Sequence record: PZ386972.1
Source: a phage
Strand: one strand, 5' to 3'
Length of the DNA stretch: 64,000 nt
Shown here piece by piece: positions 7,936-64,000 of the stretch. Each line of letters begins with the position of its first letter. Within the stretch, counting starts at the first letter, position 1. The notes beneath the pieces were generated by a model that saw only the letters and a list, made by a program, of their open reading frames with translations, did no database searches and was not told the DNA's origin. Both the position numbers and the translations under genes were made by a program.

Positions 7936-7964
7936 TATACTCTCCTTCTCTAACTAAGACTACT

Positions 7965-8287: not shown

Positions 8288-9040
8288 ATGGGAAAAGCAC
8301 GTCAAAAAAGAGAGAACCGCAATGGTTCAAGAAAGCGTGGCAACAAATATGAGAATAACGTAATTCAGGCTGATTTTTCTAATGATTACGCTAACCCAGT
8401 TGCTAAATCCCTAGTAGGTAAAAACCGCGAGCAAAAATCATATATCAATATGATCAAGAACAACACAGTGACTGTGGGTATCGGTGAGCCAGGTACTGGT
8501 AAAACCTTTATTCCGTCCGTTCTTGCAGCTCAGGAACTCGTAGACATTCACTCAGATATTGAGCAAGTGATCCTCGTACGTCCTAATGAACCTCTAGGTA
8601 AGTCTCTTGGTATGCTTCCTGGTGATCTAGCAGAAAAGCTAGAGCCTTGGTTGGAGCCAATAGCTGATGGTATGAAATGGGCCATCGGCGAACATGCCTA
8701 TAAGGGATATGTCGAACGTCAGAAAATTAAATTTTTGGCTATCGAACATGCTCGTGGCAGAACTTTCAACAACTCCTATGTAATTGTCGATGAAGCTCAG
8801 AATATTTCCGTTGAGGCAATGATTTGTCTCCTAACTCGTGTAGGACAAGACTGCCGTTTAATTATCTGCGGAGATATAGCTCAGAAAGACATTAAAGGTG
8901 ACTCAGGTCTAGCACTCCTTATGGAAGTCTATGAGAAATACGAAAATGCCCCATTCTCAATGATCGAATTGATTGATAACGTTCGTTCTGTTGAGTCTAA
9001 AGCATTCTATGACATCTTTAAAGACATGGGGAAGGTGTAA
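8288..9040 (+). CDS. phoH: PhoH-like ATPase
   Basis: Walker A GEPGTGKTF and PhoH-like body; start moved to ATG 8288 with AGGAG RBS (track gives GTG 8279). Confidence 0.8.
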   Translation: MGKARQKRENRNGSRKRGNKYENNVIQADFSNDYANPVAKSLVGKNREQKSYINMIKNNTVTVGIGEPGTGKTFIPSVLAAQELVDIHSDIEQVILVRPNEPLGKSLGMLPGDLAEKLEPWLEPIADGMKWAIGEHAYKGYVERQKIKFLAIEHARGRTFNNSYVIVDEAQNISVEAMICLLTRVGQDCRLIICGDIAQKDIKGDSGLALLMEVYEKYENAPFSMIELIDNVRSVESKAFYDIFKDMGKV

Positions 9041-9041
9041 T

Positions 9042-9263
9042 ATGGGAAACGTCGTTCATCTGAGCCGTAAAACTAAAATACATCGTACTTCACTGAGTGC
9101 TGCTAATATGATTACACGTAAGGAAGGGGAAGAAAGTCCTAAGACAACCCTAGCGTGGAAAATTGTAACCTCAAATCCAAATAAACCATTCAATTATAAC
9201 GAGCTGAGCACCTCCATAGATATTCTATTAAAAGAAGTAGCTAGAGCTAAAGTAATTGAATAA
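9042..9263 (+). CDS. hypothetical protein
   Basis: ORF track 8973..9263; internal ATG 9042 preferred because it avoids overlap with phoH. Confidence 0.35.
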   Translation: MGNVVHLSRKTKIHRTSLSAANMITRKEGEESPKTTLAWKIVTSNPNKPFNYNELSTSIDILLKEVARAKVIE

Positions 9264-9405
9264 GCTAAAAAGCTAGACTGGTAATATACAGGGCCTGGGT
9301 ATGAAAATACTCGGGCCTTTTCTATCAGAAAATTTTATTTGCCTAATGACCGATAATAAAGTAGAATATTCCTTAAATCCTGATAACTATAAAAAGGAAA
9401 GCCAA

Positions 9406-48439: not shown

Positions 48440-49171
48440 ATGAGTATTAGTGAGAATTTAAAGACTATTATTAAGCTGGCTAAGAATGCAGACGGCAAAT
48501 GTGTTTCTGAACTAACTCCTGATGAAGCTCATGCAGTAGCATTCTGTTCTGAGTTTCATCCCGCAGCTTATACAGAAGCTGGAATTGTTAAATATAATAA
48601 AGAAGAAAAATTCGTAACTCTATCTCCTTCTTATATTGCAATGAGAAAGATCATCAATTCTGTTGGTGATAAGATTGTAGGGTTCAAGGCAGATTCATAT
48701 CATGTCTTTGCAGATCAGGAACTTCCAGTATTTAAAGAAGGAAATGTTAGAGTTGCACTAGAATTATATCCCGAGGAAAAGTTCATTCCACCTAAACGTT
48801 GTGAATATGATCATCTTCCTAGACTCCAAAGAAAAGATACTGGATTCCCTTATACAAAAGATGAAGTGTTGCTAGGGATTGCTTCTACGATTGCGCAGGT
48901 TCATCTATGTCTCGAAAAGAACCTAGAGATGCCATTAATCTTACAGTCTGCACATAAAGCAATGTTAAATGACTGGGATCAATTCTTTAAGATTATAGGA
49001 GCTGTCGGATTAGCACGTTTACTTCCTGCATTTGAGAACTCTGAAGTATTTGGCGAAGGTTCTTTCGGAACTGTAGATTATGATGCGCTAAAATCCCCAC
49101 ACTCCTATCTTGCAACTTTTCTCTTCATGGTCTCGAAGGGTATCGTTCTCAAATACAAGCGGAAGGAATAA
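48440..49171 (+). CDS. hypothetical protein
   Basis: ORF track. Confidence 0.45.
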   Translation: MSISENLKTIIKLAKNADGKCVSELTPDEAHAVAFCSEFHPAAYTEAGIVKYNKEEKFVTLSPSYIAMRKIINSVGDKIVGFKADSYHVFADQELPVFKEGNVRVALELYPEEKFIPPKRCEYDHLPRLQRKDTGFPYTKDEVLLGIASTIAQVHLCLEKNLEMPLILQSAHKAMLNDWDQFFKIIGAVGLARLLPAFENSEVFGEGSFGTVDYDALKSPHSYLATFLFMVSKGIVLKYKRKE

Positions 49172-49188: not shown

Positions 49189-49218
49189 TTGACAACTCAT
49201 TAAGGTACATGTTATAAT
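49189..49218 (+). promoter_or_regulatory. promoter TTGACA-18-TATAAT directed into the gene-poor repeat locus
   Basis: Consensus hexamers; downstream 1.3 kb has no convincing plus-strand ORF. Confidence 0.5.
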
Positions 49219-49254
49219 AATCTCATAGATTAAAAACAACTTCTGTTTTTAGCT

Positions 49255-49536
49255 CTAGGCAACAAGATTATTGCTATCCCAACTCGAAGAGTACACCAGA
49301 GCCCCTGGCGCTAGGATGTATTCTGCAGCAGTTTTCACGGGATTAGCATACAGATCTTGAACGCCTAGAGCAGCAGACTTACGAGATTGGGGGATCTTAT
49401 ATTTAAAATAAAAGTAAAACTTTTGACCACATAATTTACATTCAAGATGATACACCTGTTGCCGCTCATCTGCTAGGATGGCACAACACTTTCCTAGAAA
49501 CTCCAGAGTTCTCACGAAATAATCACGAGATACCAC
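49255..49536 (-). CDS. small hypothetical protein (possible Zn-binding regulator), doubtful
   Basis: ORF track; CKLCGQKF motif; sits antisense to a promoter-driven region, so may be spurious. Confidence 0.3.
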   Translation of the reverse strand: MVSRDYFVRTLEFLGKCCAILADERQQVYHLECKLCGQKFYFYFKYKIPQSRKSAALGVQDLYANPVKTAAEYILAPGALVYSSSWDSNNLVA

Positions 49537-49544
49537 TCTTTCTA

Positions 49545-49625
49545 GGGCGGTTCTCCTAAGTTTCTAGGAACATATACTAGGCGGTTTAATACAGGGCGGT
49601 TATTGGGAGGGCGGTTATTTCTAGG
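49545..49625 (+). repeat. short direct repeats GGGCGGTT (x4) interleaved with TTTCTAGG(A) (x3)
   Basis: Seen in sequence. Confidence 0.6.
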
Positions 49626-49660
49626 AGACATTTTTTGAAAACACATTTCCAGAAATTACT

Positions 49661-50260
49661 GTCGGATTTGCACATTGTGTTTCTAGAAATTTATGGTCGG
49701 ATTTGCACAATCGCCTAAGTTTTTAGGAACATATAATCTCTTGAAAATGGCAGCATTATTTCGGGCCGAAGGCCCATGATTGCCTGAGTTTTTAGAGCCA
49801 CAAGAATTTTCACTTGTCAAGCTATTTTGCCCCATTTTGCTAATAAAATTTTACTTTATCTGCACTTATCTCAAATTAACCCAAATCTTCTCAACTCTTC
49901 TCCAAAATCCCCGCAAATCAGGTGCTCCGCACCAAACATGCGCCCCTCCCGCAGTTCCCCCAAATTTCTCTCGCTCTCTCAACTTCTCCCCAAACTCACA
50001 CAATCACACACCCTCTAATCGAAGTCACAAAAATCTTGTCGGATTCGCACATCTTAATCCTAGAAAAACCATGTCGGATTTGCACATACCCCACAGGATT
50101 CGAACGCAGTTCGTGATTGCTGGAGTTTTTAGGAAAATTCATTGTCGGATTTGCACACTATAAAAATTTTTCGGGTCGGATTTGCACACTACCAAAAATT
50201 GTCGGATTTGCACATACACGCCCCCGCGTAATCCATGGGGGCAAATGTCGGTTTTGCACA
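49661..50260 (+). repeat. array of 8 direct copies of the 14-mer GTCGGATTTGCACA (two with single substitutions), irregular spacing
   Basis: Copies at about 49661, 49696, 50038, 50073, 50144, 50175, 50201, 50247. Confidence 0.8.
49800..50035 (+). other. G-depleted, C/A-rich low-complexity tract on the plus strand
   Basis: About 235 nt with almost no G on the plus strand. Confidence 0.6.
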
Positions 50261-50285
50261 AAAGCGCAGGGCAATTGCCCTGCCC

Positions 50286-50450
50286 ACCTGAATGCAAATA
50301 AAAATGAGAATCGTTTGCATTTAAAAAGTGAAATGAGAATGATAATGATTCGCATTTAGAAAGTGAAATGATTCTCATTTAGAAAGTGGAATGATTCTCA
50401 TTTAGATAGTGAAATACAAATGATAATGATTCGCATTTAAGAACGGAAGT
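50286..50450 (+). repeat. iteron-like repeat cluster (ATGATTCTCATTTAGAAAGTG and GATAATGATTCGCATTTA units)
   Basis: Three to four tandem or inverted copies of about 20-bp units rich in AATGAGAAT/ATTCTCATT. Confidence 0.7.
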
Positions 50451-50470
50451 GAGAAACACTATTATTTAAG

Positions 50471-50479
50471 TTATCCACA
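50471..50479 (+). promoter_or_regulatory. DnaA box TTATCCACA
   Basis: Exact consensus 9-mer. Confidence 0.6.
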
Positions 50480-50543
50480 GACTTATTAACAGCACGATTT
50501 GACTTGACAGAATCCTAGCCATTTTGAGGCGTTATTAACAGAC

Positions 50544-50552
50544 TTATCCACA
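50544..50552 (+). promoter_or_regulatory. DnaA box TTATCCACA
   Basis: Exact consensus 9-mer; adjacent CTTATCCTA variant. Confidence 0.6.
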
Positions 50553-50945
50553 GCTTATCCTACTGTATAAATATACAGTATTCCTACGCAGTGAATAATT
50601 CTAATATAGCGTTAAAACGTCCTAGATCGCATTCTAACGCGTTTAATTTTGGTGGGGATACTAAAACAAGGGCAAAATTGGAGGAGGCTTGAAAATTAGT
50701 TAGCTCGCTAACGATCACACAAGGCGACACGTAACATCCTAATCATTAGCAGGCTAACCATCGCGGGCGCGGTCAAATAAGAATGATTCTCATTTGAGAA
50801 TTGGGGCACTTCCTGATAGTTGCGCCCCGTGATTATTACAGTAGTGGGCAACCGTTACGCTTTGCCCATTCCCGCCACTCATCTTGATGTCTAGACTTGC
50901 GACGGCGTACTAAAAACCGTTTATACCAGTGATTAAACCATCGTT

Positions 50946-51179
50946 TCATAAATCCTCCTCCGGTAGTCGATGCGTGATTTTTTCCTCCTCCCCATAGGAA
51001 TCCGCCAAATGCTGATAATAACCCTCGTGATCATAAATCACTTTATCATACTCGCCACGCTCGACCGCTTGCCGATTCTCTGGCGTATCGGGCACGTAAA
51101 AAACGTCTACCATCGTAGTAGTTTTGGTCACAATAATTTTATTGCTCATAGTAACTCCTAGTAAATATATTTTTGCCAA
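50946..51179 (-). CDS. hypothetical acidic protein
   Basis: ORF track; GGAGG RBS. Confidence 0.4.
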   Translation of the reverse strand: MAKIYLLGVTMSNKIIVTKTTTMVDVFYVPDTPENRQAVERGEYDKVIYDHEGYYQHLADSYGEEEKITHRLPEEDL

Positions 51180-51249
51180 TAGTGGCGAACGTTATCGCCA
51201 CCAGCGGAATCATTAGCTGCCTCAACATTACCAACGAAAATATATAATT

Positions 51250-51609
51250 TCATTGCGCCACCTTTCGAAACGCTGTTTCAATACTATCAGCCGTGGATTG
51301 AATATACGCGCCTTTCATTATCAGGCGCTCGGTGCATACCTTGCGGAAAATATTAATAAAATCCTCTTCATTTTCTGCAATCAATGCTTCCCCCATGACC
51401 TGAATATCACAAGATGCAAAGGTCAAAAATTGAAATGCTAGTTCACGGGCAACGACCGCATTGATTTTATAATGCGCCTTGCCCTCATAAATATTAATAA
51501 CGCCCTTGTAAGCTGGGGAAAGCTGATTTAAGTAATTTGCTAGTAATGCCGGACGGCAATTAGCAACAAAGCGATTGCCTTCATAAATTATCATTTGCAT
51601 AGCTCCCAA
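51250..51609 (-). CDS. hypothetical protein
   Basis: ORF track. Confidence 0.4.
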   Translation of the reverse strand: MGAMQMIIYEGNRFVANCRPALLANYLNQLSPAYKGVINIYEGKAHYKINAVVARELAFQFLTFASCDIQVMGEALIAENEEDFINIFRKVCTERLIMKGAYIQSTADSIETAFRKVAQ

Positions 51610-51836
51610 ATAGTTCCGCCGATGATCATTAGCTGACTAATAATTATCAGAATAAAACCAATTGAAGGCAGGACGCCCCAATATTGGAACGCCCTTTTAA
51701 TTTGTTGAATCATTTGTTAGCCTCCCAATCAGATAGCCAGATAAAAGCATAAAAATCCCCAATGAAAGGGGATCATTTTTAAATAAGGTGGCGGTAAAAC
51801 CGCCAACCATTGCAAGGATAATAATAATAACGCTTT

Positions 51837-52049
51837 TCATAGTACCCCACGAAAGGCCGCGTAAAAGGTGGCAAAGTGTTTAACCGTTTCAGCGATAACG
51901 TTGCCGCGCTTATCAAATTTCTTTTCTGTAACACGGAAGGCGTTTTTATTCCGCGCTACATATTCGATTTTACAATCAGGACGCTCAAACGTGTTTACAT
52001 CCACCAGCTTAAAGCCTTTCGAACGTGCAAGGGAAACGTTGCGAATCAT
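51837..52049 (-). CDS. hypothetical basic protein
   Basis: ORF track. Confidence 0.35.
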   Translation of the reverse strand: MIRNVSLARSKGFKLVDVNTFERPDCKIEYVARNKNAFRVTEKKFDKRGNVIAETVKHFATFYAAFRGVL

Positions 52050-52248
52050 TTTTTATTCTCCTTTACTAGTCATGCAGCCCAGCAGATAAGAAAATGCAGC
52101 GATACCCGCGCCAATAATAACCGCGTGGACACCGAAAGCTATTGCAAAAAGGGATAAAATAGCGCCCAAGATACCTGCTAGAATAGCTCGAAAAATAACC
52201 ATTTTCATTCTCCTAGTTAGTGGGGCGAAAGTAACGCCCCGTTATTAA

Positions 52249-52557
52249 TTACATTAAAACAATTTTAGCGGCTTGTTTTTTAGTACAGTGTTCCGCTTTC
52301 AGGGTATCCAGCAAAAAGCCCGCCGTTTGCTGATCGATTTTATCGGCATTATATAGTTCCTGAATGGTGTTATAGGTTTTAGCAATGCCGAACTCCTGCA
52401 CCATTTCATGAATGATGACGCGATTAGATACCCAACCTTGCGCGGTGAACAGATGACTAGCAGAAGAATAAGCAACCATTTTAAGCCTCCAAATTTTTGG
52501 GAAAATTTTTAATCCACCGTTTTGGTGTAAAGGCATTATAACAAAAAAGGCCACCAT
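52249..52557 (-). CDS. hypothetical protein (start uncertain, may be an internal ATG)
   Basis: ORF track; hairpin GGGGCG...CGCCCC just downstream. Confidence 0.35.
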   Translation of the reverse strand: MVAFFVIMPLHQNGGLKIFPKIWRLKMVAYSSASHLFTAQGWVSNRVIIHEMVQEFGIAKTYNTIQELYNADKIDQQTAGFLLDTLKAEHCTKKQAAKIVLM

Positions 52558-52584
52558 AAAAGGCGACCTTTACAAAACTTTACA

Positions 52585-53079
52585 TTAAACTACCTGTAAG
52601 GATTCAATATTGAAACATCGTTTCAATTCGTCATGCAAAACAGCATATTCCTCCCATCGGGTACTATCAGGAATATAAACAAGCTGTTTTAATCGGTTTG
52701 CATATATTACCGCTTTGTTATCGACTATCTCGACGCCGCCATATTTAATAATTAATTTCATGACGGAATTAATAGGATCTCCGCCGTTTACATATGTGCC
52801 GGATTTACTTAGCTGATAATGATAAAGGCTTGCATATACGTTTTCATTTTCATACCATTCGCCAGTTTCTTCGTCTTCATAGCCATCGCTACCAAAACGA
52901 GAAGCATTATCAACAGCCATTTCATGAGCAAAAGCGTCCAGATCCGTACCAGCAGGAACAAAATATTCCTCGGTATTCCCTTCCCCGCAATAGCCAGTAT
53001 GACAATCGACCAAAATGATCATATCATGTTTTGCCGTGCTCACTTCCCCTAGCGAGAAGCCGTATTTTTCCTCAGCCAT
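52585..53079 (-). CDS. hypothetical acidic protein
   Basis: ORF track, AGGAGG RBS. Confidence 0.45.
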   Translation of the reverse strand: MAEEKYGFSLGEVSTAKHDMIILVDCHTGYCGEGNTEEYFVPAGTDLDAFAHEMAVDNASRFGSDGYEDEETGEWYENENVYASLYHYQLSKSGTYVNGGDPINSVMKLIIKYGGVEIVDNKAVIYANRLKQLVYIPDSTRWEEYAVLHDELKRCFNIESLQVV

Positions 53080-53144
53080 TTATTAGCCTCCTATTAGTTA
53101 ACAAGGGAATAGTAGAGCGGGGAAATAATCCCCGCTAGTTATTA

Positions 53145-54155
53145 TTACTCGCTTTCGGTGCTAGTGGTAAAAGTAGAAATATCAATACCTTTTACCATTT
53201 CATCAATCATTTCAGCGATGTTAAAACTTTGCACCATTTCTAGCATTGCCGCCTCCATAGCTGCACCTGCCACCGCTTTCGCCTTTTGGTTAGTCGGGGC
53301 GTACTGGTCAACCGCTACACTTAGCAGGTTAGCGATCACTACACGACCAATCGGCGTATCAATATAACCTTTAATCATGAACGGCGCTTTTTTAGCCGCT
53401 ACTTTCGTGATTTGAGTCAGTGCAATTTTACCCGCTTCCAGTTTTGCAGCATTTACAACAGCGGATTTATTGGCGGCAACGATGTTAGCAATCTTGGTCA
53501 TGGTATTTTTTCCTTTGTTTTCAGTAGTTTGAGTGTTAACGCTTTGAGTGTTAGAATTTACATCATGTTTTTCTATATTGTCAATAGGCTGATTTTCATC
53601 TTTCCAGAAAGAAAAACCAGCGCTTTCAATATCTCCGTCATAAATATACGAGTATAGTTCCGAGGGTAACAAAAAATTACCATCGCCATCAAAAGCCATT
53701 ACAGCGGTATATTGAGATCCGTCATCATCCGGCTTATGCCACCCAGCGGGTAAATACTTCCAGATAACATTTAAAAATCCCTCAATACTAGAAAGTCCAT
53801 TTATCAGATCAAGTCCAATAAGCTCAAAACCATTTATATTAAATGATTGACGGCCTGAATTGCTATGATACGCAACAATATTATTGCCCTGCGCAATAAT
53901 AAAATCGGCATCCGGCCCCGCTCCCCTGCCTGTAAAGATATGGCAATCCCGATTATATAAAACTAACGTTGCCCCTTGCTTATATAGTGGTAGAAAACTA
54001 TCAATATCATAAGCGTCATAATCATCAAAAAAGTTTTGATGAATAGTTTCAGCCTTGTTAATAAAATGTTTAATACTGGTTGTCCTGCTACCGTCCAGCA
54101 GGTTGCGCAATGCACCTTTTAAAACGGTGGCATTATCAGGTTTATAAAGCCTCAT
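53145..54155 (-). CDS. hypothetical protein (336 aa), first gene of the minus-strand pre-early block
   Basis: ORF track, GAGGGAGG RBS; terminator-like hairpin GCGGGGA...TCCCCGC downstream. Confidence 0.5.
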   Translation of the reverse strand: MRLYKPDNATVLKGALRNLLDGSRTTSIKHFINKAETIHQNFFDDYDAYDIDSFLPLYKQGATLVLYNRDCHIFTGRGAGPDADFIIAQGNNIVAYHSNSGRQSFNINGFELIGLDLINGLSSIEGFLNVIWKYLPAGWHKPDDDGSQYTAVMAFDGDGNFLLPSELYSYIYDGDIESAGFSFWKDENQPIDNIEKHDVNSNTQSVNTQTTENKGKNTMTKIANIVAANKSAVVNAAKLEAGKIALTQITKVAAKKAPFMIKGYIDTPIGRVVIANLLSVAVDQYAPTNQKAKAVAGAAMEAAMLEMVQSFNIAEMIDEMVKGIDISTFTTSTESE

Positions 54156-54456
54156 TTGTTCGGCCTCCCTCGTTAATCGGTGAGTGAATGATATAGATAT
54201 TTTCTTTCTAGGGGCAAATATTATTTTACCTTTTTACCTTTTTATTTTCCTTGCCTAGCGCCTAGTTTTATGCTAACCGCGCAGCGGTGCAATAAAGAGC
54301 AAAACACGGCGAAGCCACCAGGGCGACGGGTGAAGGCTTTACTTTAATATTACTCCACCGCATTTAGCTCGTTAGAAAGCGTTTTAGGCCGCTTAAAATT
54401 GATTGCAGTTGTTAACACTACCTTTCTACCCTGTATATTTATACAGTAGAATAACC

Positions 54457-54465
54457 TGTGGATAA
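54457..54465 (-). promoter_or_regulatory. DnaA box (TGTGGATAA on plus strand)
   Basis: Exact consensus. Confidence 0.6.
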
Positions 54466-54468
54466 GTC

Positions 54469-54477
54469 TGTGGATAA
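54469..54477 (-). promoter_or_regulatory. DnaA box (TGTGGATAA on plus strand)
   Basis: Exact consensus, 12 nt from the previous box. Confidence 0.6.
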
Positions 54478-54529
54478 GTCTTTATATCGCCGCCTATCGT
54501 GTCAAATCATTTTGTGCTGTTAATAAACT

Positions 54530-54538
54530 TGTGGATAA
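54530..54538 (-). promoter_or_regulatory. DnaA box (TGTGGATAA on plus strand)
   Basis: Exact consensus. Confidence 0.6.
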
Positions 54539-54649
54539 CTTAAATGATAGTGGTTCTCACTTAGGCCGATAGTTTCTTATAGTTATTATTTCTCATTAAT
54601 TTATATGTATATTATATATCATGAAATAGTTAGTTGGCTAATGAGATTT

Positions 54650-54830
54650 TCCGTGATTAATAGTCTGCTAATAGTTTAAGCCGTTACAATCCACCAGCAT
54701 GATTATCATCCTAGCAATTATTAGTCTGCTATCTTTCCGATGCATACTAACAAATAAAAGTCAATTAATTTATTTCATAAAATAAGTAGTTATCCACTGG
54801 AAAATAAAAGTCAAGTGGATAACTAGGAAA
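54650..54830 (+). repeat. AT-rich control region with direct repeats (ATTAnTAGTCTGCTA x2, AATAAAAGTCAA x2) and two convergent DnaA-like boxes
   Basis: TTATCCACT at about 54790 and its inverse AGTGGATAA at about 54814. Confidence 0.55.
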
Positions 54831-55280
54831 ATTTCATTTTTGCTTTTGGGGATAAGTTATCAACAAGGCTAGAATGCGCCTAAAACGCCCTAGAATGCGA
54901 TGAAAGTTTTAGTCATGCCATTGCATTGCCTACCCTCGTTTATCGCTACCACGAGCTTTTTAGGTTTTGTCAAGTAGGGCAAAGCAAATATAAATGAAAA
55001 AATTACTTGCCTATCTGCTATGTTTTGTGGTATTCGCGCGCCCGTTTCTTTTAATTTTAGTGCGCCGCGCCCAGGTCGCCGCACGCCGTCCGGTGGATCG
55101 TGTCTTTACATTTCTTTACAAAATTAAGGTTGCGCCCTTTTCGGGAATCCCCTATTATTTATCACGTAGGGCGGCAATGACGAACTACACGGCGGGAAGT
55201 TTACCGCCGCGCTCTTTAAAAATTGGGTACATCTTAAAGCCTATCGGCGGTAAACTTATACATTATAAGGAATCGACGAT

Positions 55281-55484
55281 ATGAAACAAACTTTATTGAT
55301 CACTGGTAAACCTAGCAAGGCACTGGACAGCAAAACAAAAAATTTGTTGACAGTAGCGCAAAGATCGGTAAAATATCGATTTAAGCAGTACAAGAAAGGT
55401 CGCCAGCAAGGTCTGGAAATGATCTGGCGAAATATTATGATTGACCTGAAAGAAAATCATAAAAAATCTCAAAAAATTGTTTGA
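55281..55484 (+). CDS. small basic protein
   Basis: ORF track. Confidence 0.4.
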   Translation: MKQTLLITGKPSKALDSKTKNLLTVAQRSVKYRFKQYKKGRQQGLEMIWRNIMIDLKENHKKSQKIV

Positions 55485-55711
55485 CAACCTAGCCGATAGG
55501 TTTTAAGATGTACTCAGTTCGATAAGAGCGATAACTTGATAAAATTTGACGGTCGGTGCTTACCATAATGCATCCCGCCCCCTAACTGGGATATAGCGGC
55601 CTACGTGGAGTTCTTTAAATTGAATATACTGGCGAGCGGATTGTTACTTATTACCTGCTACTTTCTAGCAGGTAATGCGGAACAATCCCCAAATAACTAG
55701 GAGTTTATATT

Positions 55712-55963
55712 ATGCAAAACGTTATCACCGCGCCGAAAGTTGGTCAGTCTGTTTTTATTCCTTTCGTTACTAAAACGGATGAACTAACCGGAAAAGCCGA
55801 ACGTATTAAAGGTGCGGCGCTTATGCCGTTTGATACAATCGACGCGGTATATGCTGAAAATGAACGCAGTAACAACGGCAAAACCGTTTTTAGCGTTCGG
55901 GTTAAATCCGGCGATGTTGTAAAGGTTGTTCAACGCAACGAAAAATGGGAAGCTGTTTTATAA
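55712..55963 (+). CDS. hypothetical protein
   Basis: ORF track, AGGAG RBS. Confidence 0.45.
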   Translation: MQNVITAPKVGQSVFIPFVTKTDELTGKAERIKGAALMPFDTIDAVYAENERSNNGKTVFSVRVKSGDVVKVVQRNEKWEAVL

Positions 55964-56061
55964 TTTAGTGTTAACTTTATATACCCCAGTAGTTAGGGGT
56001 ATATAACGATTAACATTATGTTAATCTTATCCCTTAAATTAAACTAATAGGAGTTTTTACC

Positions 56062-56469
56062 ATGACTAACGTTAAAACCGCAAAATTCGCTTGGAATGAA
56101 GAAAACACCCAGAAAGCTGTTTCTATGTACCAGCAGTTAATCAATGAAAACGGTTTAGATTTCGCAAATAGTGACGGGCTGAAAGAGATTGCAAAAGCAG
56201 TAGGCGCGGCTTCTCCCGTGTCAGTTCGCTCAAAATTGACCAGTGCAAAAGCCTACCAAAAAAGCGATAAGCCTCGTAAAGTTGGCGGCGGTAGTTCTGT
56301 ACGCAAGGCGCATTATGTGCGCGTTATCGCTAAACACGCCATTGATTCCGGCATTATCAAAGACGCTGATGATCTGGCAAGTCTGGAAAGTGCAAAACTT
56401 GAAACGCTGGATGCGGTAGCGCAACTGTTAGGCGTTGCTGATGAAGTGAAACAAGCCGCAGGAGAATAA
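56062..56469 (+). CDS. hypothetical protein
   Basis: ORF track, AGGAG RBS. Confidence 0.45.
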   Translation: MTNVKTAKFAWNEENTQKAVSMYQQLINENGLDFANSDGLKEIAKAVGAASPVSVRSKLTSAKAYQKSDKPRKVGGGSSVRKAHYVRVIAKHAIDSGIIKDADDLASLESAKLETLDAVAQLLGVADEVKQAAGE

Positions 56470-56477
56470 TTATATAC

Positions 56478-56508
56478 CTTGCCCCCTTCTAGTGAGGGGG
56501 CAATAATA
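56478..56508 (+). terminator. rho-independent terminator
   Basis: CTTGCCCCC...GGGGGCAA hairpin. Confidence 0.55.
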
Positions 56509-56558
56509 TAACTGTTTAGCGATAGTTATTTTCTTCCCTTAAATCAGGAGTTTTAAAA

Positions 56559-56756
56559 ATGATTTTCTTTCCTACTGAATCCTTAATTCTAGGCTTGTTT
56601 ATTATGGCGGCCTCGTTATTGTTCGCTTATTTTCAAAATGATTTAGATTCGTATTATTTTAAACGTAAATCTAAGTTAGCAAAACGTTTGGGCTTGCTTT
56701 GTTTTATCGCTGCCGTTGCTTGTGGTGTTAGTTCTAGCCTTATGCCTTTAAATTAA
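56559..56756 (+). CDS. small membrane protein (2 TM)
   Basis: ORF track. Confidence 0.4.
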   Translation: MIFFPTESLILGLFIMAASLLFAYFQNDLDSYYFKRKSKLAKRLGLLCFIAAVACGVSSSLMPLN

Positions 56757-56846
56757 TGTTGCAAATTATAACGCCTATTATTCGAGGCGTTATATTTGGC
56801 AATATTGCCGTTATTAATCTAATCCCTTTAATGGAGTTTTATTATT

Positions 56847-58511
56847 ATGATTATTTCCGCAGAAAAACAAACCGTTATCCTGAAAATGGCCGCTGACTTT
56901 AATTTCTATGGTAAACGTCTGCGCGCCACTAAACTGGAGGTCTGCGACGATATATCAAAAGCGGTATATGATACTACAAAACACTCGACCGCTATCTGCG
57001 ACTGGCTGGAAGCAAATAAACCAGTTAAACCGAAAGCGGCGAAAGTAGCAAAAGCCATTAAAAACGATGAGCGTCCAGAAGCGGCGGGGATTGTTTCTAG
57101 CACGGTTGAACAGTGGGAAGTAAAACAAGGCAAACGCTTTATTATTACGTCGATTCAGAATAATACTTTCCCGCATAAAAACTTTTTAGCCTCATTGGAA
57201 AAATTCGCTGAATATATCGGTGCTGATTTGCTTGTTTCTAAGTATATTTATAATAAAAACGGCTTCCAAAATGGCGAGGGTGCGGATGGAATCAAATATG
57301 ATTCCGCGTTCGATAAATATATTTGCAGCAAAAACGTGTTTTTAAATAACCGCCGTTTTGCTTTCATGGCTGAAATTAACGTGTTACCAACCGCAGACTA
57401 TCCGCTTTCTGGATTCGCTGAAACTGCAACGGCGCTTAATCTGGAAGGTCTGGCAATCGGTCACGCTAAAATCACCGCTGAAAGCGTGCCAGCTCTCAAA
57501 GGTGAAGTAGTACGCCGTATGTATTCAACGGGCACGGCAACGCTCAAAAACTACATTCAGCAAAAAGCAGGGCAAAAAGCGGAGGCGCTTCATAACTTTG
57601 GTGCGCTGATTGTCGAGTTCGATGATGATGGTGAGTTTTTTGTGCGCCAGCTTGAAACAATGGATGAAAGCGGGGTGTTTTATGATCTGAATGTTTGCGC
57701 TACTCCCGCAGGATGCTATGAAACATCGGGGCATGTGCTAGGCTTGCAATATGGTGACATACACGCCGAAAAACTGGATGATGATTGTGCCGTTGCGTCA
57801 TGGGCTGGCGAAAATAGCTTGCTTGATATTCTTAAACCAAAATATCAGTTTATCCATGACGTGCATGATTTTACATCCCGCAATCATCATAATCGTGCAT
57901 CCGGTGTATTCCTAGCTAAACAATACGCCGCCGGACGTGATAAAGTTCTGGATGATCTTATCGATACTGGTCGCGTGCTGGAATCGATGGAACGTGATTT
58001 TAGTCAAACGATTATTGTGGAATCTAACCATGATTTAGCGTTATCCCGCTGGTTGGATGATCGTAATGCTAACATTAAAGACGATCCAGCAAACGCGGAA
58101 CTATATCACCGCCTGAATGCCGCGATTTACGGAGCTATTGCAGAAAAAGACGATACTTTCAACGTGCTAGATTATGCATTGCGCAAGGTTGCAGGTTGTG
58201 AGTTTAACGCCATTTTCCTAACAACTGACCAATCATTTAAAATTGCAGGCATCGAGTGTGGCGTACACGGTCACAACGGCATTAACGGCAGCCGTGGCAA
58301 TCCTAAACAATTTAAGAAATTGGGCAAATTGAACACCGGACACACTCACACCGCCAGCATTTACGGCGGGGTATATACCGCTGGCGTTGCTGGTAGTCTC
58401 GATATGGGTTACAACGTTGGCGCGTCAAGCTGGACGCAAACGCATTTAATTACCTATGCAAACGGGCAGCGCACTTTGATCGATTTTAAGAATGGTAAAT
58501 TCTTTGCGTAA
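56847..58511 (+). CDS. A1: A1-like pre-early protein, metallophosphoesterase-fold nuclease
   Basis: 554 aa; calcineurin-like motifs GDIHAE, ESNHD, GHTHT; size and placement beside dmp-like gene match T5 A1 (from memory). Confidence 0.6.
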   Translation: MIISAEKQTVILKMAADFNFYGKRLRATKLEVCDDISKAVYDTTKHSTAICDWLEANKPVKPKAAKVAKAIKNDERPEAAGIVSSTVEQWEVKQGKRFIITSIQNNTFPHKNFLASLEKFAEYIGADLLVSKYIYNKNGFQNGEGADGIKYDSAFDKYICSKNVFLNNRRFAFMAEINVLPTADYPLSGFAETATALNLEGLAIGHAKITAESVPALKGEVVRRMYSTGTATLKNYIQQKAGQKAEALHNFGALIVEFDDDGEFFVRQLETMDESGVFYDLNVCATPAGCYETSGHVLGLQYGDIHAEKLDDDCAVASWAGENSLLDILKPKYQFIHDVHDFTSRNHHNRASGVFLAKQYAAGRDKVLDDLIDTGRVLESMERDFSQTIIVESNHDLALSRWLDDRNANIKDDPANAELYHRLNAAIYGAIAEKDDTFNVLDYALRKVAGCEFNAIFLTTDQSFKIAGIECGVHGHNGINGSRGNPKQFKKLGKLNTGHTHTASIYGGVYTAGVAGSLDMGYNVGASSWTQTHLITYANGQRTLIDFKNGKFFA

Positions 58512-58564
58512 TTAAATTATTCCCTAGCGGCTTGAAATATAGCCGCTATCACAGGAGTCAAAAA

Positions 58565-58822
58565 ATGAAAGTTACATTACCCAAAACATTGGACGAAAAA
58601 GTATTCATTTCACCGGATGAAATGGAATCTGATAAAGTTTACAGCTTCGGGCCTATCCTAGCCGCCAAAACTAATACGGATGGTATTATTTCCGTCGATT
58701 CCCGTGATAACGATATTGTCCCTTTTGATGATGATGGTGCTTTTTATGAGTGGCTAAGCGATAATAATTTACCCGTAAACGGTGAATTAACGCCATACCA
58801 GATGCAGATTATTATCAAATAA
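58565..58822 (+). CDS. hypothetical acidic protein
   Basis: Internal ATG of track ORF 58532..58822 with GGAG RBS. Confidence 0.4.
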   Translation: MKVTLPKTLDEKVFISPDEMESDKVYSFGPILAAKTNTDGIISVDSRDNDIVPFDDDGAFYEWLSDNNLPVNGELTPYQMQIIIK

Positions 58823-58860
58823 ATTAAATCCATTATCAAACTAACTGGAGTTTTATAAAT

Positions 58861-59259
58861 ATGAAAAAGCAAAATATCCCATTCGATCGCGCTCAGTCCT
58901 CAATTGTTCTGGTTTATTCTAATGGCGAACGTTACCACGTCGAGGCGGGGCACGTTATTGATGACCTATTAGATTTCAATGACGCTTTGCAGGTTACTAC
59001 CTTTGCCTATACGCAAGGCAAACTAACCAGCCATATTAAGGCAAAAGGCGTTTATGTTGACACGGTGAAACAAGAAACGGTTATCATCGATGCCGTAAAA
59101 TCCGGCCTAGCCTTTGCAGTTGTCGCGCCTTGCCTCGCTTGCCTTGATGATCAATTGATTAGTGCAAAGGTCTACACATGTGCGGGGATTCGTTCTAGCG
59201 TATCCGGTGAGGATGTTAGTTTTATCGCTGATGCTCTCGCTTTTGGTCTGGCGTTCTAA
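58861..59259 (+). CDS. hypothetical protein (132 aa; possibly A2-like)
   Basis: ORF track; position between A1-like and dmp-like genes. Confidence 0.35.
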   Translation: MKKQNIPFDRAQSSIVLVYSNGERYHVEAGHVIDDLLDFNDALQVTTFAYTQGKLTSHIKAKGVYVDTVKQETVIIDAVKSGLAFAVVAPCLACLDDQLISAKVYTCAGIRSSVSGEDVSFIADALAFGLAF

Positions 59260-59273
59260 TAGTTAATTGAACA

Positions 59274-59306
59274 TAGCCCACTAATAAAATATAATTAGTG
59301 GGCTAG
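59274..59306 (+). terminator. hairpin, possible terminator
   Basis: AGCCCACTAAT...ATTAGTGGGCT inverted repeat, no clear U-run. Confidence 0.35.
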
Positions 59307-59346
59307 ATTGAATTAATCTAATCCCTTAAATGGAGAACGTAACAAA

Positions 59347-60081
59347 ATGAATCAAGTTAAAACGAATATTACCCGTAATTTCCCGCATATTTCCCGCGTC
59401 ATGATTTGGGATTTAGACGGCACTATCGTTAATTCCTTCCATCGTGTAGCGCCTTGCTTTGATAGCGAGGGCAATTTAGATTTAAATAAGTATAAAAATG
59501 AAGCCTGCAAACATCATTTAATAATGCAAGATACTTTATTGCCATTAGTTGAATATATGCGCCAGTGCATGAATGACGCAAATACTTTAAACATTATTTG
59601 CACCGCTCGACTAATGAGCAAGTCGGACTATTATTATTTGCGCAAACAAGGCTTGCGCGGTCGTGGTAATAGTAATATTCGCGTGTTTTCCCGTGATACA
59701 CTGCATAAATATTTTGAGGCTGATAAAGTTAGCGAAATATACCACAGCAAGGACGCAGTATATAAATCTTATTATTTTGAATTATTTAAACAACTATATC
59801 CGAACGCTGATTTTACAATGATTGATGATCATAAAGGCGTGCTATCAGCGGCAGCATCATACGGATTTAAAACGCTGGACGCGCAAGCCGTTAACGATAT
59901 TCTATCAATCGGCGTGACATTAATAGGTGAAACCTTTATTGATGAATCTCTCGACGATGATAATGATTATCAATTCCTAGCTGACCGCTTAAAGCTATGC
60001 TGGGAAGGTATGACCGAGGAAGAACGCGCAGAATATAGTTGCAGCCCGCAACAATATATCGAGAAATTAAAAGTTGCGTAA
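59347..60081 (+). CDS. dmp: HAD-type 5'-deoxyribonucleotidase (dmp-like)
   Basis: 244 aa with WDLDGTI HAD motif; size matches T5 dmp (from memory). Confidence 0.6.
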   Translation: MNQVKTNITRNFPHISRVMIWDLDGTIVNSFHRVAPCFDSEGNLDLNKYKNEACKHHLIMQDTLLPLVEYMRQCMNDANTLNIICTARLMSKSDYYYLRKQGLRGRGNSNIRVFSRDTLHKYFEADKVSEIYHSKDAVYKSYYFELFKQLYPNADFTMIDDHKGVLSAAASYGFKTLDAQAVNDILSIGVTLIGETFIDESLDDDNDYQFLADRLKLCWEGMTEEERAEYSCSPQQYIEKLKVA

Positions 60082-60099
60082 TAATTAAAGTTGAAATAG

Positions 60100-60136
60100 T
60101 TTCATCCTGCAATTAAAATGATTGCAGGATGAAACA
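60100..60136. terminator. bidirectional terminator hairpin between convergent gene blocks
   Basis: GTTTCATCCTGCAAT...ATTGCAGGATGAAAC perfect 15-bp inverted repeat. Confidence 0.65.
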
Positions 60137-60245
60137 ATTACCCTGCTAATAGTAACGGGGGTGGCGGTTAGCAGACTAAGTATTTTCGCCGGAGGCAGTG
60201 GACACACCTCCATGTGTAATCTTATGAAATTTGGCAAAAGTCAGA

Positions 60246-60491
60246 TTAGCGCATAGAAGGGTCATCAAACCGATGTTCAGGTCTAAACTCACGAAATCTC
60301 TTCCGCGACGCCCGAGATCCATCCGACCACTCCCGCTCAAACTCCACACGTTTCTCGTCAAACTTCCGCTCCCTTTCCGCAATCTCCCGCGTCACTCCCG
60401 CAATATATTCCCGATGTTTATTGATTGCCGCAGTTGTCCCGAAAACTCCCGCGAGTATCCCGATAATAAAAGCAATTATAATACTAAACAT
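60246..60491 (-). CDS. small single-pass membrane protein
   Basis: ORF track; N-terminal TM helix. Confidence 0.4.
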   Translation of the reverse strand: MFSIIIAFIIGILAGVFGTTAAINKHREYIAGVTREIAERERKFDEKRVEFEREWSDGSRASRKRFREFRPEHRFDDPSMR

Positions 60492-60681
60492 CTAATTCCT
60501 TCTCAATTTGCAGAATACGGGTGCTATCACAACGTTGCAGTAGTACTAGCTTTTCTAGAATAACTTGTTGTTGTTGTTTCACCTGAGCTTCTAGAGTTTT
60601 TAGGCGGAGATACACGACACGAGAGACAATGAGGATTACCCATACTAATATTACTATTAGTGTAACTGCCGCTTCCATCAT
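60484..60681 (-). CDS. small single-pass membrane protein (paralog family)
   Basis: ORF track; TM helix plus coiled-coil tail. Confidence 0.4.
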   Translation of the reverse strand: MMEAAVTLIVILVWVILIVSRVVYLRLKTLEAQVKQQQQVILEKLVLLQRCDSTRILQIEKELDV

Positions 60682-60784
60682 TTACGTTTCCCCGATAGTA
60701 AGGTTTCGATTCTAGCTAAGTGATTATCTAAAATACACTGCCCAATAATCACAATCCCCAGTAGTGCAATAATTACCCATTCCA

Positions 60785-60970
60785 TTATTTACGCTCCTCT
60801 AATAAAGTTTCAATTCTAGATAGTCTATTGCTCAACTGCATTAATTTAATTTCTGTTTGGGTTACAGAGGTATCTATTACACGTAAGCCTATAAAGAGAA
60901 GTATCAATAAGACGAATATGCCAATAATTACCCATTCCATTAAATCCACCCCGCCATAGCTGCTAACCAA
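60785..60970 (-). CDS. small single-pass membrane protein (paralog family, MEWVII N-terminus)
   Basis: ORF track; an unlisted 34-aa sibling MEWVIIALLGIVIIG... lies at about 60690-60790. Confidence 0.4.
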   Translation of the reverse strand: MVSSYGGVDLMEWVIIGIFVLLILLFIGLRVIDTSVTQTEIKLMQLSNRLSRIETLLEERK

Positions 60971-61015
60971 AAACCTACGAAAATTAGGAATAATACAAAA
61001 CCAAATCCGTAAATA

Positions 61016-61348
61016 TTAATCCACGCTTCGTACACTTCTCCGCGCCTGTTCTTTCTTTTGTTTGACATATCTTTCATGCTCCCGTAAATGTGGTATTTGG
61101 AATATTCTAGCAATTGCACGAACCATTATAACTGTTCCTATGAGATCCATCATTTCATCAAATCCAGATTCTTCTAGAAGAAATGATGTTCCCATTACAT
61201 CTTCCATAGTGTCTTGTATGACGTCCTGAATGATTTCATTAACTGCATTGTGAACCGCTTTTGCTCTAGGAGTCATCTCAAGTGGCATAGGTTCCTGGAA
61301 GGGCTTCTCATTTTCTTGCATAGTGTTTTCTGCCAGTACACCATCCAA
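61016..61348 (-). CDS. hypothetical protein
   Basis: ORF track. Confidence 0.4.
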   Translation of the reverse strand: MDGVLAENTMQENEKPFQEPMPLEMTPRAKAVHNAVNEIIQDVIQDTMEDVMGTSFLLEESGFDEMMDLIGTVIMVRAIARIFQIPHLREHERYVKQKKEQARRSVRSVD

Positions 61349-61395
61349 GAAATAAAAAATTTAGTTTACTTGGATGTCTTTTTGTTTTATACTAA

Positions 61396-61662
61396 TTACA
61401 GGTAATTAGATTGTTCTAGTTTAAATTTACAATTACCATATTTAAGGTCAAACTGACTGAGATCCCACCATCCAAACTTAGTACGGAGCTGTACTACTGG
61501 AAAGCGATCTCCCTTAATACGAACTTTTTGAACCTTGAGACCGTAATGTTCTTCTCCCGCACCACCAAAAGATTTTACAAATCCCGTACAAAATGGTTTG
61601 GGAGCAGGTGCACAACCAGATAACATAACTGCGGCAACTAGTGCAATCACAAACTTTTTCAT
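61396..61662 (-). CDS. llp: Llp-like lipoprotein (candidate receptor-blocking superinfection-exclusion protein)
   Basis: Signal peptide with lipobox LSGC; small size; divergent from the adjacent receptor-binding-protein-like gene, as for T5 llp/oad. Confidence 0.5.
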   Translation of the reverse strand: MKKFVIALVAAVMLSGCAPAPKPFCTGFVKSFGGAGEEHYGLKVQKVRIKGDRFPVVQLRTKFGWWDLSQFDLKYGNCKFKLEQSNYL

Positions 61663-61747
61663 ATTTATCTCTCCATTTCTAATTTATGAATCTATTATAG
61701 CAAAATAGAGGGATGAAAGCAAATACATTTTTATAATAGGAGATTAT

Positions 61748-63508
61748 ATGGGTTTTTTCGCTGGAAAATATAGTGATGGTAAAACTGTATTATCACTAAA
61801 TACTGCTAGTGGTGGAGATATTAATGCTCATAAAAACCCTAGTACTAATACTATTTTTCATTCTGATATGCCCTTCGTATTAGTAGAAAGCACTTATGAG
61901 AGTGCATTAAGTAGTGCTGGGAATGGTTTCTATGTATGCCAGATGCCTTCTGCAATAGCTAACTTAAAGAGTAATGATCCTGGTAGAGTTATACTAACAG
62001 CTATAGAAGTTAATGGTACTCATCGTGGTTTTTTGAATGGTACTCAATCTCAAGTTGGGCAGTTTCTTTCTTCTACTCAGGCCGATCCTTTTAGATCATT
62101 TGCTAGCTTAAGTCAAACTGCTGGATTTGCTTTTGGTAATAGTCTAGCTTCAGGTACTTATTCCTATAATAGTTCTCTAGGGCATGAAGAATCTATAGCT
62201 AGAAGTGGTACTGGCGGTACTGTACTACATAGTACTTATCATGGTGTTGTAAGACCAGGTGGTGGTGCACCTGTAGGTGCTACTGTAGCTGAAACTTTCA
62301 AACAACTAGGGTATCCTATAGGAAGTACTTCTGTTCCTATATCTTCAGGTGATACGTACTATTGGGATCCTAACTGGATGGCTCCAATGGGGGCTGGTAA
62401 ACGTGGCCATAACTGGTTTTATGTATGTAATTCTAATATTAGGGGGTATGCTGGATACAAACAAACAATCCCTAGCAATATAGTACAGCACTTTAGTGAT
62501 GGGGGGTATAGATATGTTTGTAGAGGTTCTACTACTAAGTTAGTAAGTCAATCAGCTAATACAAAAATAGTTCAAGATGGCTACGGAGTAACCCCTACAA
62601 AAGTTATATGGTATGTACTAAACCTAAGGTATTCTAATGGTGGTATGTCTGTTTCTAGCAATCCCTTTACAGGTTCTGACATAATAATTTCTCCGTCCAA
62701 CTTTACTATTAAGGGAGTTAAGTTATCTACTACTGGTTGGAAGTTTATTAATCAGAATGCTCTAGGGAATCTAAGTTCTCGTGCTGATATGGAGTATATT
62801 GGAGTAAACGCTGCGCATGGTGGAGTGTTTGGGGATACTACTGGAAGATGTGAATTTGTATGCTCTAACAAAGGATCTATATGGGCACCAGTCAACTATA
62901 GTGGTACAAGAGCACAACTTAGTATTTATAAGTTCTCTGCTAGTAAGACCTGGTATGTAAACTCTAATAATAATACTATTGGTAATGAGAATGGTGTTGT
63001 CTGGGGACCTTCATCAATACCTTTACGCCTATTATCCGGTAATGTGGCTAGTGCCTATATTGGTAATGATATTACTCCGACCTATCCGGGCACTGGTAAT
63101 GTTTATAAATCCCTAGCAACAGTTGGATTAGGCCTACCCAATAATAACTCTACTGTTATACTAACTAGTGAAATATTATCGGGTAACCTTAATGTTGCTG
63201 GGTTACCAGTAAATACGTGGAATGGTAGTGTTTTTCAGGTGCAAGGAAGAAAATCACAAAGTTATACAGGAGGAGATGCTATATTTCACCAAATTTTAGT
63301 TCTTCCTCCCGGAAAGTTAGTACCTTTCCACACTACCTCCGCCTATAAATATACTCCAGATAGCGGAGCTTTTAGTAGAAACAGTTTTATATATACAATA
63401 AAAAATCTTGGTAATGGTAATGCAGAATTAGGTGTTATACTACACGTTAGTTTAGGTTCCGCAGTTTTCTTACCGAGACTACGAGTAACAGTTCAACGCC
63501 TTACCTAA
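61748..63508 (+). CDS. receptor-binding tail protein (pb5/Oad-like), by synteny
   Basis: 586 aa, Gly/Ser/Thr/Asn-rich; adjacent and divergent to llp-like gene. Confidence 0.45.
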
Positions 63509-63518
63509 AGGAGGAAAT

Positions 63519-64000
63519 ATGGCAAATGATGTATTAGTACCAGATCTTATGTCCCCTGAAGGGATGGATGTGATTGAAGCTTATTTACAGTGTGGCAGCG
63601 ATGTGCCTTCTGCCGCACGTAGTCTTGGAATGTCCGAAATTGCTTTCCGAGATATTATGAATCGTAGTGAAGTTAAGAACTACTTAAACGATATTTTTAT
63701 GGAAAGTGGTTTCCGTAACAGAGACCGTTTGTTCGGTGTTCTAGATGAAGTTATTAAACGTAAGCTGGAGGAACTGGAAGAAACTGGCATGGGTTCTGAC
63801 CAGGATATTATGGATATTCTCTGGAAGGCACATAAAATGAAGATGGAAGAGATGAAAATGATGGTGGAGCTAGAAAAAGCTAAAGCTGCTGTCCGAGCTC
63901 CTGCTAGTCAGACCAATATCCAGAATAATATTATTGCTGGAGCTGGGGATCAAAACTACATGGACTTAATTACTTCCCTAGCTACTGGAGGTAAGAAGTA
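63519..64000 (+). CDS. HTH-containing protein (possible terminase small subunit or DNA-binding protein), 3' end beyond window
   Basis: Reading frame from ATG 63519 with GGAGG RBS runs to window end; [16 protein letters not shown] helix-turn-helix-like segment. Confidence 0.35.

What the first reader, a model, noticed from the sequence alone, without database searches (positions are those of the whole stretch)
49189..61700. Terminal-repeat-like pre-early module lies in the middle of the window, joined to a late gene
Early genes run into the repeat locus and an A1-like/dmp-like module, and only about 1.3 kb after dmp the sequence continues into an llp/receptor-binding-protein pair. In a linear T5-type genome dmp sits near the physical left end, so this contiguity suggests a collapsed terminal redundancy, a circularly permuted assembly, a concatemer junction, or a genuinely different genome organisation. 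Base composition also looks GC-richer across 50.6-60 kb by eye.
Basis: inference. Interest (0 to 1): 0.55.

Follow-up and report, generated by a model that had tools for sequence, protein, structure and literature searches.

The report
Collapsed T5-type terminal repeat in assembly
The window is part of a T5-like phage genome written with only one copy of its roughly 10.4-kb terminal repeat, which is the usual way short-read assemblies and most GenBank entries show these phages, so the gene order is ordinary.

Summary
Early genes end at 49171. A 1.75-kb untranslated repeat locus follows, then the pre-early module: A2 at 56062-56469, A1 at 56847-58511 and dmp at 59347-60081. The llp/pb5 pair starts 1.3 kb after dmp.

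The window is a Tequintavirus in reverse orientation relative to T5. T5's left physical end aligns to window 60204 and its right physical end to window 49795. BF23 and MM-1 map to the same two points. BF23's ends were set by PhageTerm, and MM-1 has an annotated right repeat. Both junction sequences are conserved base for base.

The predicted terminal repeat is therefore 49795-60204, or 10,410 bp. It is present once. The LTR-to-early-gene junction lies on one side and the late-region-to-RTR junction on the other. This layout is the signature of a collapsed, arbitrarily opened assembly. It is also the same sequence as a concatemer junction.

In T5 virion DNA the right-repeat copy of dmp already lies about 1 kb from llp, so that adjacency is native. 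About 83% of GenBank T5-like records carry A1 only once. The GC excess is marginal: 40.5% against 38.8%.

Verdict: already known, low interest.

The parts
48440..49171 (+). Last early-region ORF (243 aa) before the repeat. It belongs to the unique DNA that adjoins the inner end of the left terminal repeat in T5-type genomes.
   Evidence: ORF list. PHROG 8993. 33% identity to BF23_00019, the first gene after the BF23 left repeat.
49189..49218 (+). Consensus sigma-70 promoter (TTGACA, 18 nt, TG-TATAAT) pointing into the untranslated repeat region. It is conserved in T5-like phages.
   Evidence: 12 of 12 hexamer matches with TG. Alignment with T5, BF23, BB1 and a Logan contig.
49795..60204 (-). 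Predicted terminal repeat (10,410 bp), present once in the window. In T5 orientation, window 60204 is the left physical end and RTR start. Window 49795 is the right physical end and LTR end.
   Evidence: BLASTN of T5, BF23 and MM-1 termini. Base-level junction comparison. T5 repeat annotation is 10,219 bp, MM-1 RTR 10,407 bp, BF23 9,743 bp. No second copy in the window.
49661..50260 (+). Array of eight GTCGGATTTGCACA repeats (DRD type) in the injection-stop-signal region. Two copies lie just outside the repeat boundary, as in T5.
   Evidence: 11 matches in the window against about 0.3 expected; eight lie here. Davison describes Repeat Region 3 overrunning the LTR by 270 bp.
50418..50578 (.). 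Arm of the long inverted repeat (equivalent to IRD'-spacer-IRC') with two consensus DnaA boxes. It is the core of the injection stop signal.
   Evidence: Inverted repeat I1. TTATCCACA at 50471 and 50544. Homology to T5 around 9411-9542. Davison preprint.
54431..54591 (.). Partner arm of the inverted repeat (equivalent to IRC-spacer-IRD) with three consensus DnaA boxes, 3,852 nt from the first arm.
   Evidence: The reported range of arm spacing in T5-like phages is 1,851-4,258 bp.
50946..54155 (-). Pre-early ORF block homologous to T5.011-T5.017. It includes DUF7566 (53145-54155) and a 164-aa ORF (52585-53079) that BF23 has and T5 lacks.
   Evidence: Gene calls on related contigs.
56062..56469 (+). 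A2, a DNA-binding protein required for second-step DNA transfer.
   Evidence: PHROG 1725. 98.5% identical to T5 A2.
56847..58511 (+). A1, the DNA transfer protein.
   Evidence: PHROG 1745, E = 1.9e-244. 95% identical to T5 A1 and 97% to BF23 A1.
59347..60081 (+). dmp, deoxynucleoside-5'-monophosphatase. It is the gene closest to the terminus within the repeat.
   Evidence: 97% identical to T5 Dmp. In T5, dmp lies at 124-858 from the left end.
60099..60135 (.). Perfect 16-bp-stem hairpin between the dmp stop and the predicted terminus.
   Evidence: z = -5.4 for the 123-nt stretch 60082-60204.
60246..60970 (-). Small membrane-protein ORFs homologous to T5.162-T5.159. This is unique DNA that precedes the right terminal repeat in T5.
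   Evidence: T5 annotation.
61396..61662 (-). llp, the receptor-blocking lipoprotein, of BF23 type.
   Evidence: PHROG 1119 and LPAM_1. 98.9% identical to BF23 Llp.
61748..63508 (+). pb5 (oad), the receptor-binding tail protein.
   Evidence: PHROG 4815, E = 8.6e-255. 30% identical to T5 pb5. DNA across 60922-64000, which includes pb5, is 97.9% identical to phage BB1.

Best explanation
The window comes from a T5-like (Tequintavirus) genome sequence in which the two identical long direct terminal repeats of the virion DNA have been merged into one copy. The resulting circle-like contig was then opened at an arbitrary point.

The single repeat copy is window 49795-60204. It carries the pre-early first-step-transfer genes (dmp, A1, A2 and others) and the injection-stop-signal repeats. 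On its low-coordinate side it continues into the early genes, which is the LTR/unique junction. On its high-coordinate side it continues into the T5.162-159 homologues, llp and pb5, which is the unique/RTR junction.

In the virion, the DNA would start at window 60204, reading towards lower coordinates. It would end with a second copy of the repeat that finishes at the sequence of window 49795.

Shown here: homology of both boundaries, gene content, and a single copy within the window. Inferred: that this phage's virion DNA really carries the repeat twice.
For: - T5 position 1 aligns to window 60204 and T5 position 121750 to window 49795. The T5 alignments from either end stop exactly there, while the alignments from the internal junctions run straight through.
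- At base level, both terminus sequences and both flanks are conserved: TGTCCACTGCCTCCGGCG... on one side and ...TTGTGGCTC on the other.
- BF23's ends, set independently by PhageTerm, and MM-1's annotated RTR map to the same two coordinates within 4 nt.
- Records of 118-119 kb that carry both repeats (MM-1, MM-2, TUMS_E3) match the query only from position 607, which is window 49795. Records of 105-113 kb span both junctions in one piece.
- An A1 query finds 454 records but only 533 places, so about 83% of deposits have a single repeat copy. A1 often lies in mid-record.
- PMC10783031 reports that T5-like assemblies give one double-coverage segment in a circular topology, with PFGE showing the larger true size.
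- The first ~70 bp inside the 49795 boundary is the only part of that query still detectable in distant Klebsiella T5-like phages. This fits a functional terminal sequence.
Against: - No reads, coverage or end-mapping data are available, so duplication of the repeat in this phage's virion is inferred from homology only.
- Only 64 kb of the genome is visible, so I cannot show that the rest of the record lacks a second copy.
- One published record, chee24, annotates repeat limits 100-200 bp away from these positions, so annotated boundaries in the family are not all consistent.
Confidence: 0.9

Rival explanations
1. The sequence was read from a replicative form: a concatemer junction, or the intracellular circle that contains the genome minus one terminal repeat. 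It would then be a true molecule rather than an assembly collapse.
For: The unique-repeat-unique arrangement is exactly what a concatemer junction or a circle would contain. Davison notes that circles seen by electron microscopy equal the T5 genome minus one repeat.
Against: The sequence alone cannot separate this from assembly collapse. Phage genomes are normally sequenced from virion DNA, and collapse is the documented routine outcome. This rival changes where the contig came from. It does not change the biology.
Confidence: 0.06
2. This phage has a genuinely different genome organisation. It would have no long terminal repeats, for example headful packaging with circular permutation or ends elsewhere, so the pre-early module would be internal in the virion DNA.
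For: Nothing positive. It is simply not excluded without read data.
Against: - Both T5, BF23 and MM-1 terminus sequences are conserved at the homologous positions.
- The first-step-transfer gene set, the injection-stop repeats and the DnaA-box inverted repeats are all intact. They only make sense if this segment enters the cell first.
- The small terminase subunit gene begins just after pb5, as in T5-type relatives. DNA there is 94-95% identical to T5 and to a related contig.
Confidence: 0.02
3. A chimeric misassembly joined unrelated parts of the genome, or two different phages, at the repeat.
For: The region is mosaic in its best matches. For example, 60922-64000 is 97.9% identical to BB1, while the repeat is closest to phB7 at 93.5%.
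Against: Both junctions reproduce native T5 junctions base for base. The same contiguity occurs in more than 100 independent records and in metagenome contigs. Mosaicism of the receptor module is normal in this family.
Confidence: 0.02

Closest known systems
Escherichia phage T5 terminal repeats (NC_005859 / AY543070; LTR 1-10219, RTR 111532-121750)
   Same: - Both boundary sequences match.
- Gene order is the same: dmp, T5.002, T5.003, A1, T5.005, A2, T5.007, T5.008, then T5.011-017, then the injection stop signal.
- The unique flanks match: T5.162-159, llp and pb5 on one side, early genes on the other.
- dmp, A1 and A2 proteins are 95-98% identical.
   Different: - The repeat is present once in the window, not twice.
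- It is 10,410 bp against 10,219 bp.
- It lacks the hegG HNH endonuclease insertion of T5.
- It has an extra 164-aa ORF (52585-53079).
- The llp/pb5 module is not of T5 (FhuA) type.
Escherichia phage BF23 (OR083247; 9,743-bp repeats determined with PhageTerm, PMC10644984)
   Same: Its termini map to window 60200-60204 and 49795. It has the 164-aa ORF. Its Llp is 98.9% identical.
   Different: BF23's record shows both repeat copies. Its repeat is about 670 bp shorter.
GenBank T5-like records deposited with one repeat copy and an arbitrary start (for example phB7 OQ680479, ECOP18 MT080103, BB1 MT843274)
   Same: They show the same early-genes, repeat, llp/pb5 contiguity in a single alignment of 12 kb at 92-93.5% identity. 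Record lengths are 105-113 kb.
   Different: None in architecture. There is only sequence divergence and small insertions and deletions.
Concatemer junctions of phages with long direct terminal repeats, and the T5 intracellular circle (genome minus one repeat)
   Same: One repeat copy lies between the right-end and left-end unique sequences (the general model is from my own knowledge).
   Different: These are real replication intermediates. Here the arrangement most likely arises in silico.

Membership tests
T5-type genome with long direct terminal repeats (Demerecviridae, Markadamsvirinae) | The same ~10-kb sequence is present at both physical ends of virion DNA. | not testable with these tools
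   Only one copy exists in the 64-kb window. No reads or end data are available.
T5-type genome with long direct terminal repeats (Demerecviridae, Markadamsvirinae) | The repeat boundaries are homologous to determined termini of family members. | tested here: met
   T5, BF23 and MM-1 termini map to window 60204 and 49795. The junction sequences are conserved.
T5-type genome with long direct terminal repeats (Demerecviridae, Markadamsvirinae) | The repeat carries the pre-early first-step-transfer genes dmp, A1 and A2. | tested here: met
   PHROG hits and 95-98% protein identity to T5.
T5-type genome with long direct terminal repeats (Demerecviridae, Markadamsvirinae) | An untranslated injection-stop-signal region lies at the inner end of the repeat, with direct repeats and a long inverted repeat bearing DnaA boxes. 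| tested here: met
   Eight DRD-type repeats. Inverted repeat 50418-50578 / 54431-54591 with five consensus TTATCCACA boxes. It matches the description in 10.1101/866236.
T5-type genome with long direct terminal repeats (Demerecviridae, Markadamsvirinae) | Unique-region flanks: early genes and the tRNA cluster next to the LTR inner end; llp, pb5 and terminase next to the RTR start. | tested here: met
Collapsed-repeat assembly artefact | A single repeat copy is flanked by both unique junctions. | tested here: met
Collapsed-repeat assembly artefact | About twofold read depth over the repeat, with sharp read-start peaks at its limits. | not testable with these tools
   No read data. Reported for related phages in PMC10783031.

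The most novel reading that the evidence does not exclude
This phage packages DNA without duplicating the 10.4-kb segment, so the first-step-transfer module is internal in the virion. That would mean a T5-like phage had given up terminal repeats and two-step injection while keeping all the cis and trans parts.

A milder novel reading concerns the conserved promoter at 49189 and the invariant non-coding block at about 49441-49494, just outside the repeat. They could make an undescribed transcript or packaging signal that reads across the repeat boundary.
Probability: 0.03. Interest if true: 0.45.

Novelty: already known. Interest (0 to 1): 0.07.

Why it matters
It matters mainly for bookkeeping. 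If the assembly is a collapsed form, as about 83% of deposited T5-like genomes are, the record would understate the virion genome by about 10.4 kb. It would also place the physical ends arbitrarily. The true ends can be predicted at window 60204 and 49795. No new biology is implied.

Tried and rejected
- I looked for a second repeat copy in the window with the repeat finder and a self-BLAST. There is none.
- I looked for the source record. The best matches are only 93-97% identical, so it is not in the phage collection.
- Contigs that encode the identical A1 protein come from other phages, but they show the same layout.
- The Rfam scan of 48.5-62.5 kb gave only chance-level microRNA hits.
- The local Pfam copy lacks the T5-specific families, so dmp, A1, A2 and pb5 gave no Pfam hit. 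Their identities rest on PHROGs and on direct comparison with T5 and BF23.
- The GC shift was tested and rejected as a meaningful signal.
- chee24's annotated repeat limits do not coincide with the others. I treated them as imprecise, since T5, BF23 and MM-1 agree with one another.
Full report
**What is there**

The window is a T5-like siphovirus genome (Tequintavirus, Demerecviridae). It lies in the opposite orientation to the T5 reference.

The flagged 12.5 kb matches 499 phage records. In 120 of them a single alignment covers at least 80% of it. The best match is Salmonella phage phB7 at 93.5%.

On the + strand, an early-gene block carries about 20 copies of the T5 early-promoter motif and 22 tRNA genes. 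It ends with the ORF at 48440-49171.

A stretch of about 1.75 kb with no credible ORF follows. It holds eight GTCGGATTTGCACA repeats at 49661-50260; the window has 11 such matches against about 0.3 expected by chance. It also holds further direct repeats and one arm of a 161-nt inverted repeat, whose partner lies 3.85 kb away.

Next come minus-strand ORFs homologous to T5.017-T5.011. Plus-strand ORFs follow, ending in A2 (56062-56469), A1 (56847-58511) and dmp (59347-60081). PHROGs identifies them. They are 98.5%, 95% and 97% identical to the T5 proteins.

After dmp come:
- four small membrane-protein ORFs on the - strand, homologues of T5.162-159;
- llp at 61396-61662 on the - strand;
- pb5 at 61748-63508 on the + strand;
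- the start of the terminase genes.

**Where the repeat limits are**

I aligned the two ends of T5 (NC_005859; repeats annotated at 1-10219 and 111532-121750) to the window.
- T5 position 1 aligns to window 60204, and the alignment stops there.
- T5 position 121750 aligns to window 49795, and the alignment stops there.
- The alignment across the LTR/unique junction (T5 9317-10661) runs through 49795 without a break.
- The alignment across the unique/RTR junction runs through 60204 without a break.

At base level both terminus sequences are conserved, as are their outside flanks.

Two further phages map to the same two points within 4 nt:
- BF23 has 9,743-bp repeats that were determined with PhageTerm.
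- MM-1 has an annotated 10,407-bp RTR.

chee24's annotated limits are offset by 100-200 bp. I take that as imprecise annotation.

The predicted repeat is therefore window 49795-60204, or 10,410 bp. There is no second copy in the window.

**What it means**

In authentic T5 virion DNA the left repeat runs into the early genes. The right repeat is preceded by pb5, llp and T5.159-162. The right-hand copy of dmp is therefore only about 990 nt from llp. A 1.6-kb T5 record of that junction is also in the collection (X75922). So the dmp-llp adjacency is native and not surprising.

What cannot occur in one virion molecule is a single repeat copy carrying both junctions. That is what the window shows. 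It is the form obtained when identical terminal repeats are merged by an assembler and the circle-like contig is opened arbitrarily. It is also the sequence of a concatemer junction, or of the intracellular circle lacking one repeat.

The databases show how common this is:
- Records of 105-113 kb span both junctions in a single alignment.
- Records of 118-119 kb with both repeats (MM-1, MM-2, TUMS_E3) match only from query position 607, which is window 49795.
- An A1 query hits 454 records but only 533 places, so roughly 83% of records hold one copy. A1 is often far from either record end.
- PMC10783031 describes exactly this for T5-like Salmonella phages. It reports one segment at more than twice the coverage in a circular assembly, PhageTerm repeats, and PFGE confirming the larger genome.
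- Contigs encoding the identical A1 protein show the same layout, including a 109-kb Logan contig.

**The repeat locus**

The untranslated region matches published descriptions of the T5 injection-stop-signal region (Davison, bioRxiv 10.1101/866236):
- The direct repeats overrun the repeat boundary into unique DNA. Here two DRD-type copies lie at 49661 and 49696, outside 49795.
- A pair of long inverted repeats carries DnaA boxes, with arms 1.9-4.3 kb apart in different phages. Here the arms are 50418-50578 and 54431-54591. They carry five consensus TTATCCACA boxes.

Only the first ~70 bp inside the 49795 boundary is still detectable by BLASTN in distant Klebsiella T5-like phages. That is consistent with a functional terminal sequence.

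**Base composition**

The repeat is 40.5% GC, against 38.8% for the rest of the window. The contrast seen by eye comes mostly from the AT-rich 12 kb just upstream (36.9%). The stretch 9-19.4 kb reaches the same value as the repeat. I do not treat this as a signal.

**Alternatives**
- A true replicative molecule cannot be separated from assembly collapse by sequence. It would not change the biology.
- A genuinely different organisation is unlikely. Both terminus sequences, the full pre-early gene set and the injection-stop architecture are intact.
- A chimeric join is unlikely, because both junctions reproduce native T5 junctions and recur in many independent records.

**Verdict**

The feature is already known and is best treated as an annotation issue. 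The predicted physical ends are at window 60204 and 49795. Confirming them needs read-depth or end-mapping data, which I do not have.

Noticed in passing
window 49189-49800: A perfect sigma-70 promoter (TTGACA, 18 nt, TG-TATAAT) sits at 49189-49218 on the + strand, 18 nt after the last early ORF. It is conserved in T5, BF23, BB1 and a metagenome contig, and it points into the untranslated region. Downstream lie a block of about 54 nt that is invariant in all five phages (about 49441-49494), GGGCGGTT repeats, and a GGGCCGAAGGCCC hairpin just before the repeat boundary. There is no ORF and no Rfam match. It could be an undescribed transcript or a cis-acting packaging element.
   Followed up: partly
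window 49789-49863: In the 501-nt query 49400-49900, only the first ~70 bp inside the predicted right-terminus boundary is still found by BLASTN in distant Klebsiella T5-like phages. This suggests a deeply conserved terminal sequence.
   Followed up: partly
window 60099-60135: A perfect 16-bp-stem hairpin (GTTTCATCCTGCAATT / AATTGCAGGATGAAAC) lies between the dmp stop codon and the predicted left terminus, 69 bp from the end. The 123-nt stretch 60082-60204 that contains it folds with z = -5.4. It may be a terminator or an end-proximal element.
   Followed up: partly
window 61396-63508: The receptor module is not of T5 type. Llp is 98.9% identical to BF23 Llp and has no detectable similarity to T5 Llp. 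pb5 is only 30% identical to T5 pb5, while the DNA across 60922-64000 is 97.9% identical to phage BB1. This suggests a BtuB-type rather than a FhuA-type receptor, and a mosaic join near 60.9 kb.
   Followed up: partly
window 52585-53079 and around 54.2-55.0 kb: The repeat carries a 164-aa ORF (PHROG 6741) that BF23 has and T5 lacks. It also lacks the hegG HNH endonuclease that splits the repeat regions in T5.
   Followed up: partly
L006 (Logan SRR26367184 contig) and L008 (Logan SRR14630113 contig): Two metagenome contigs carrying the identical A1 protein break close to the predicted repeat limits. One starts at window-equivalent 49805 and one ends at 60153. This may reflect graph breaks or read ends near the physical termini.
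   Followed up: no
window 8176-44141: About 20 copies of a T5-type early promoter motif (A-rich upstream element, TTGCT, then TATAAT and ATAAATT) lie on the + strand, with 22 tRNA genes at 22.0-32.4 kb.
   Followed up: no
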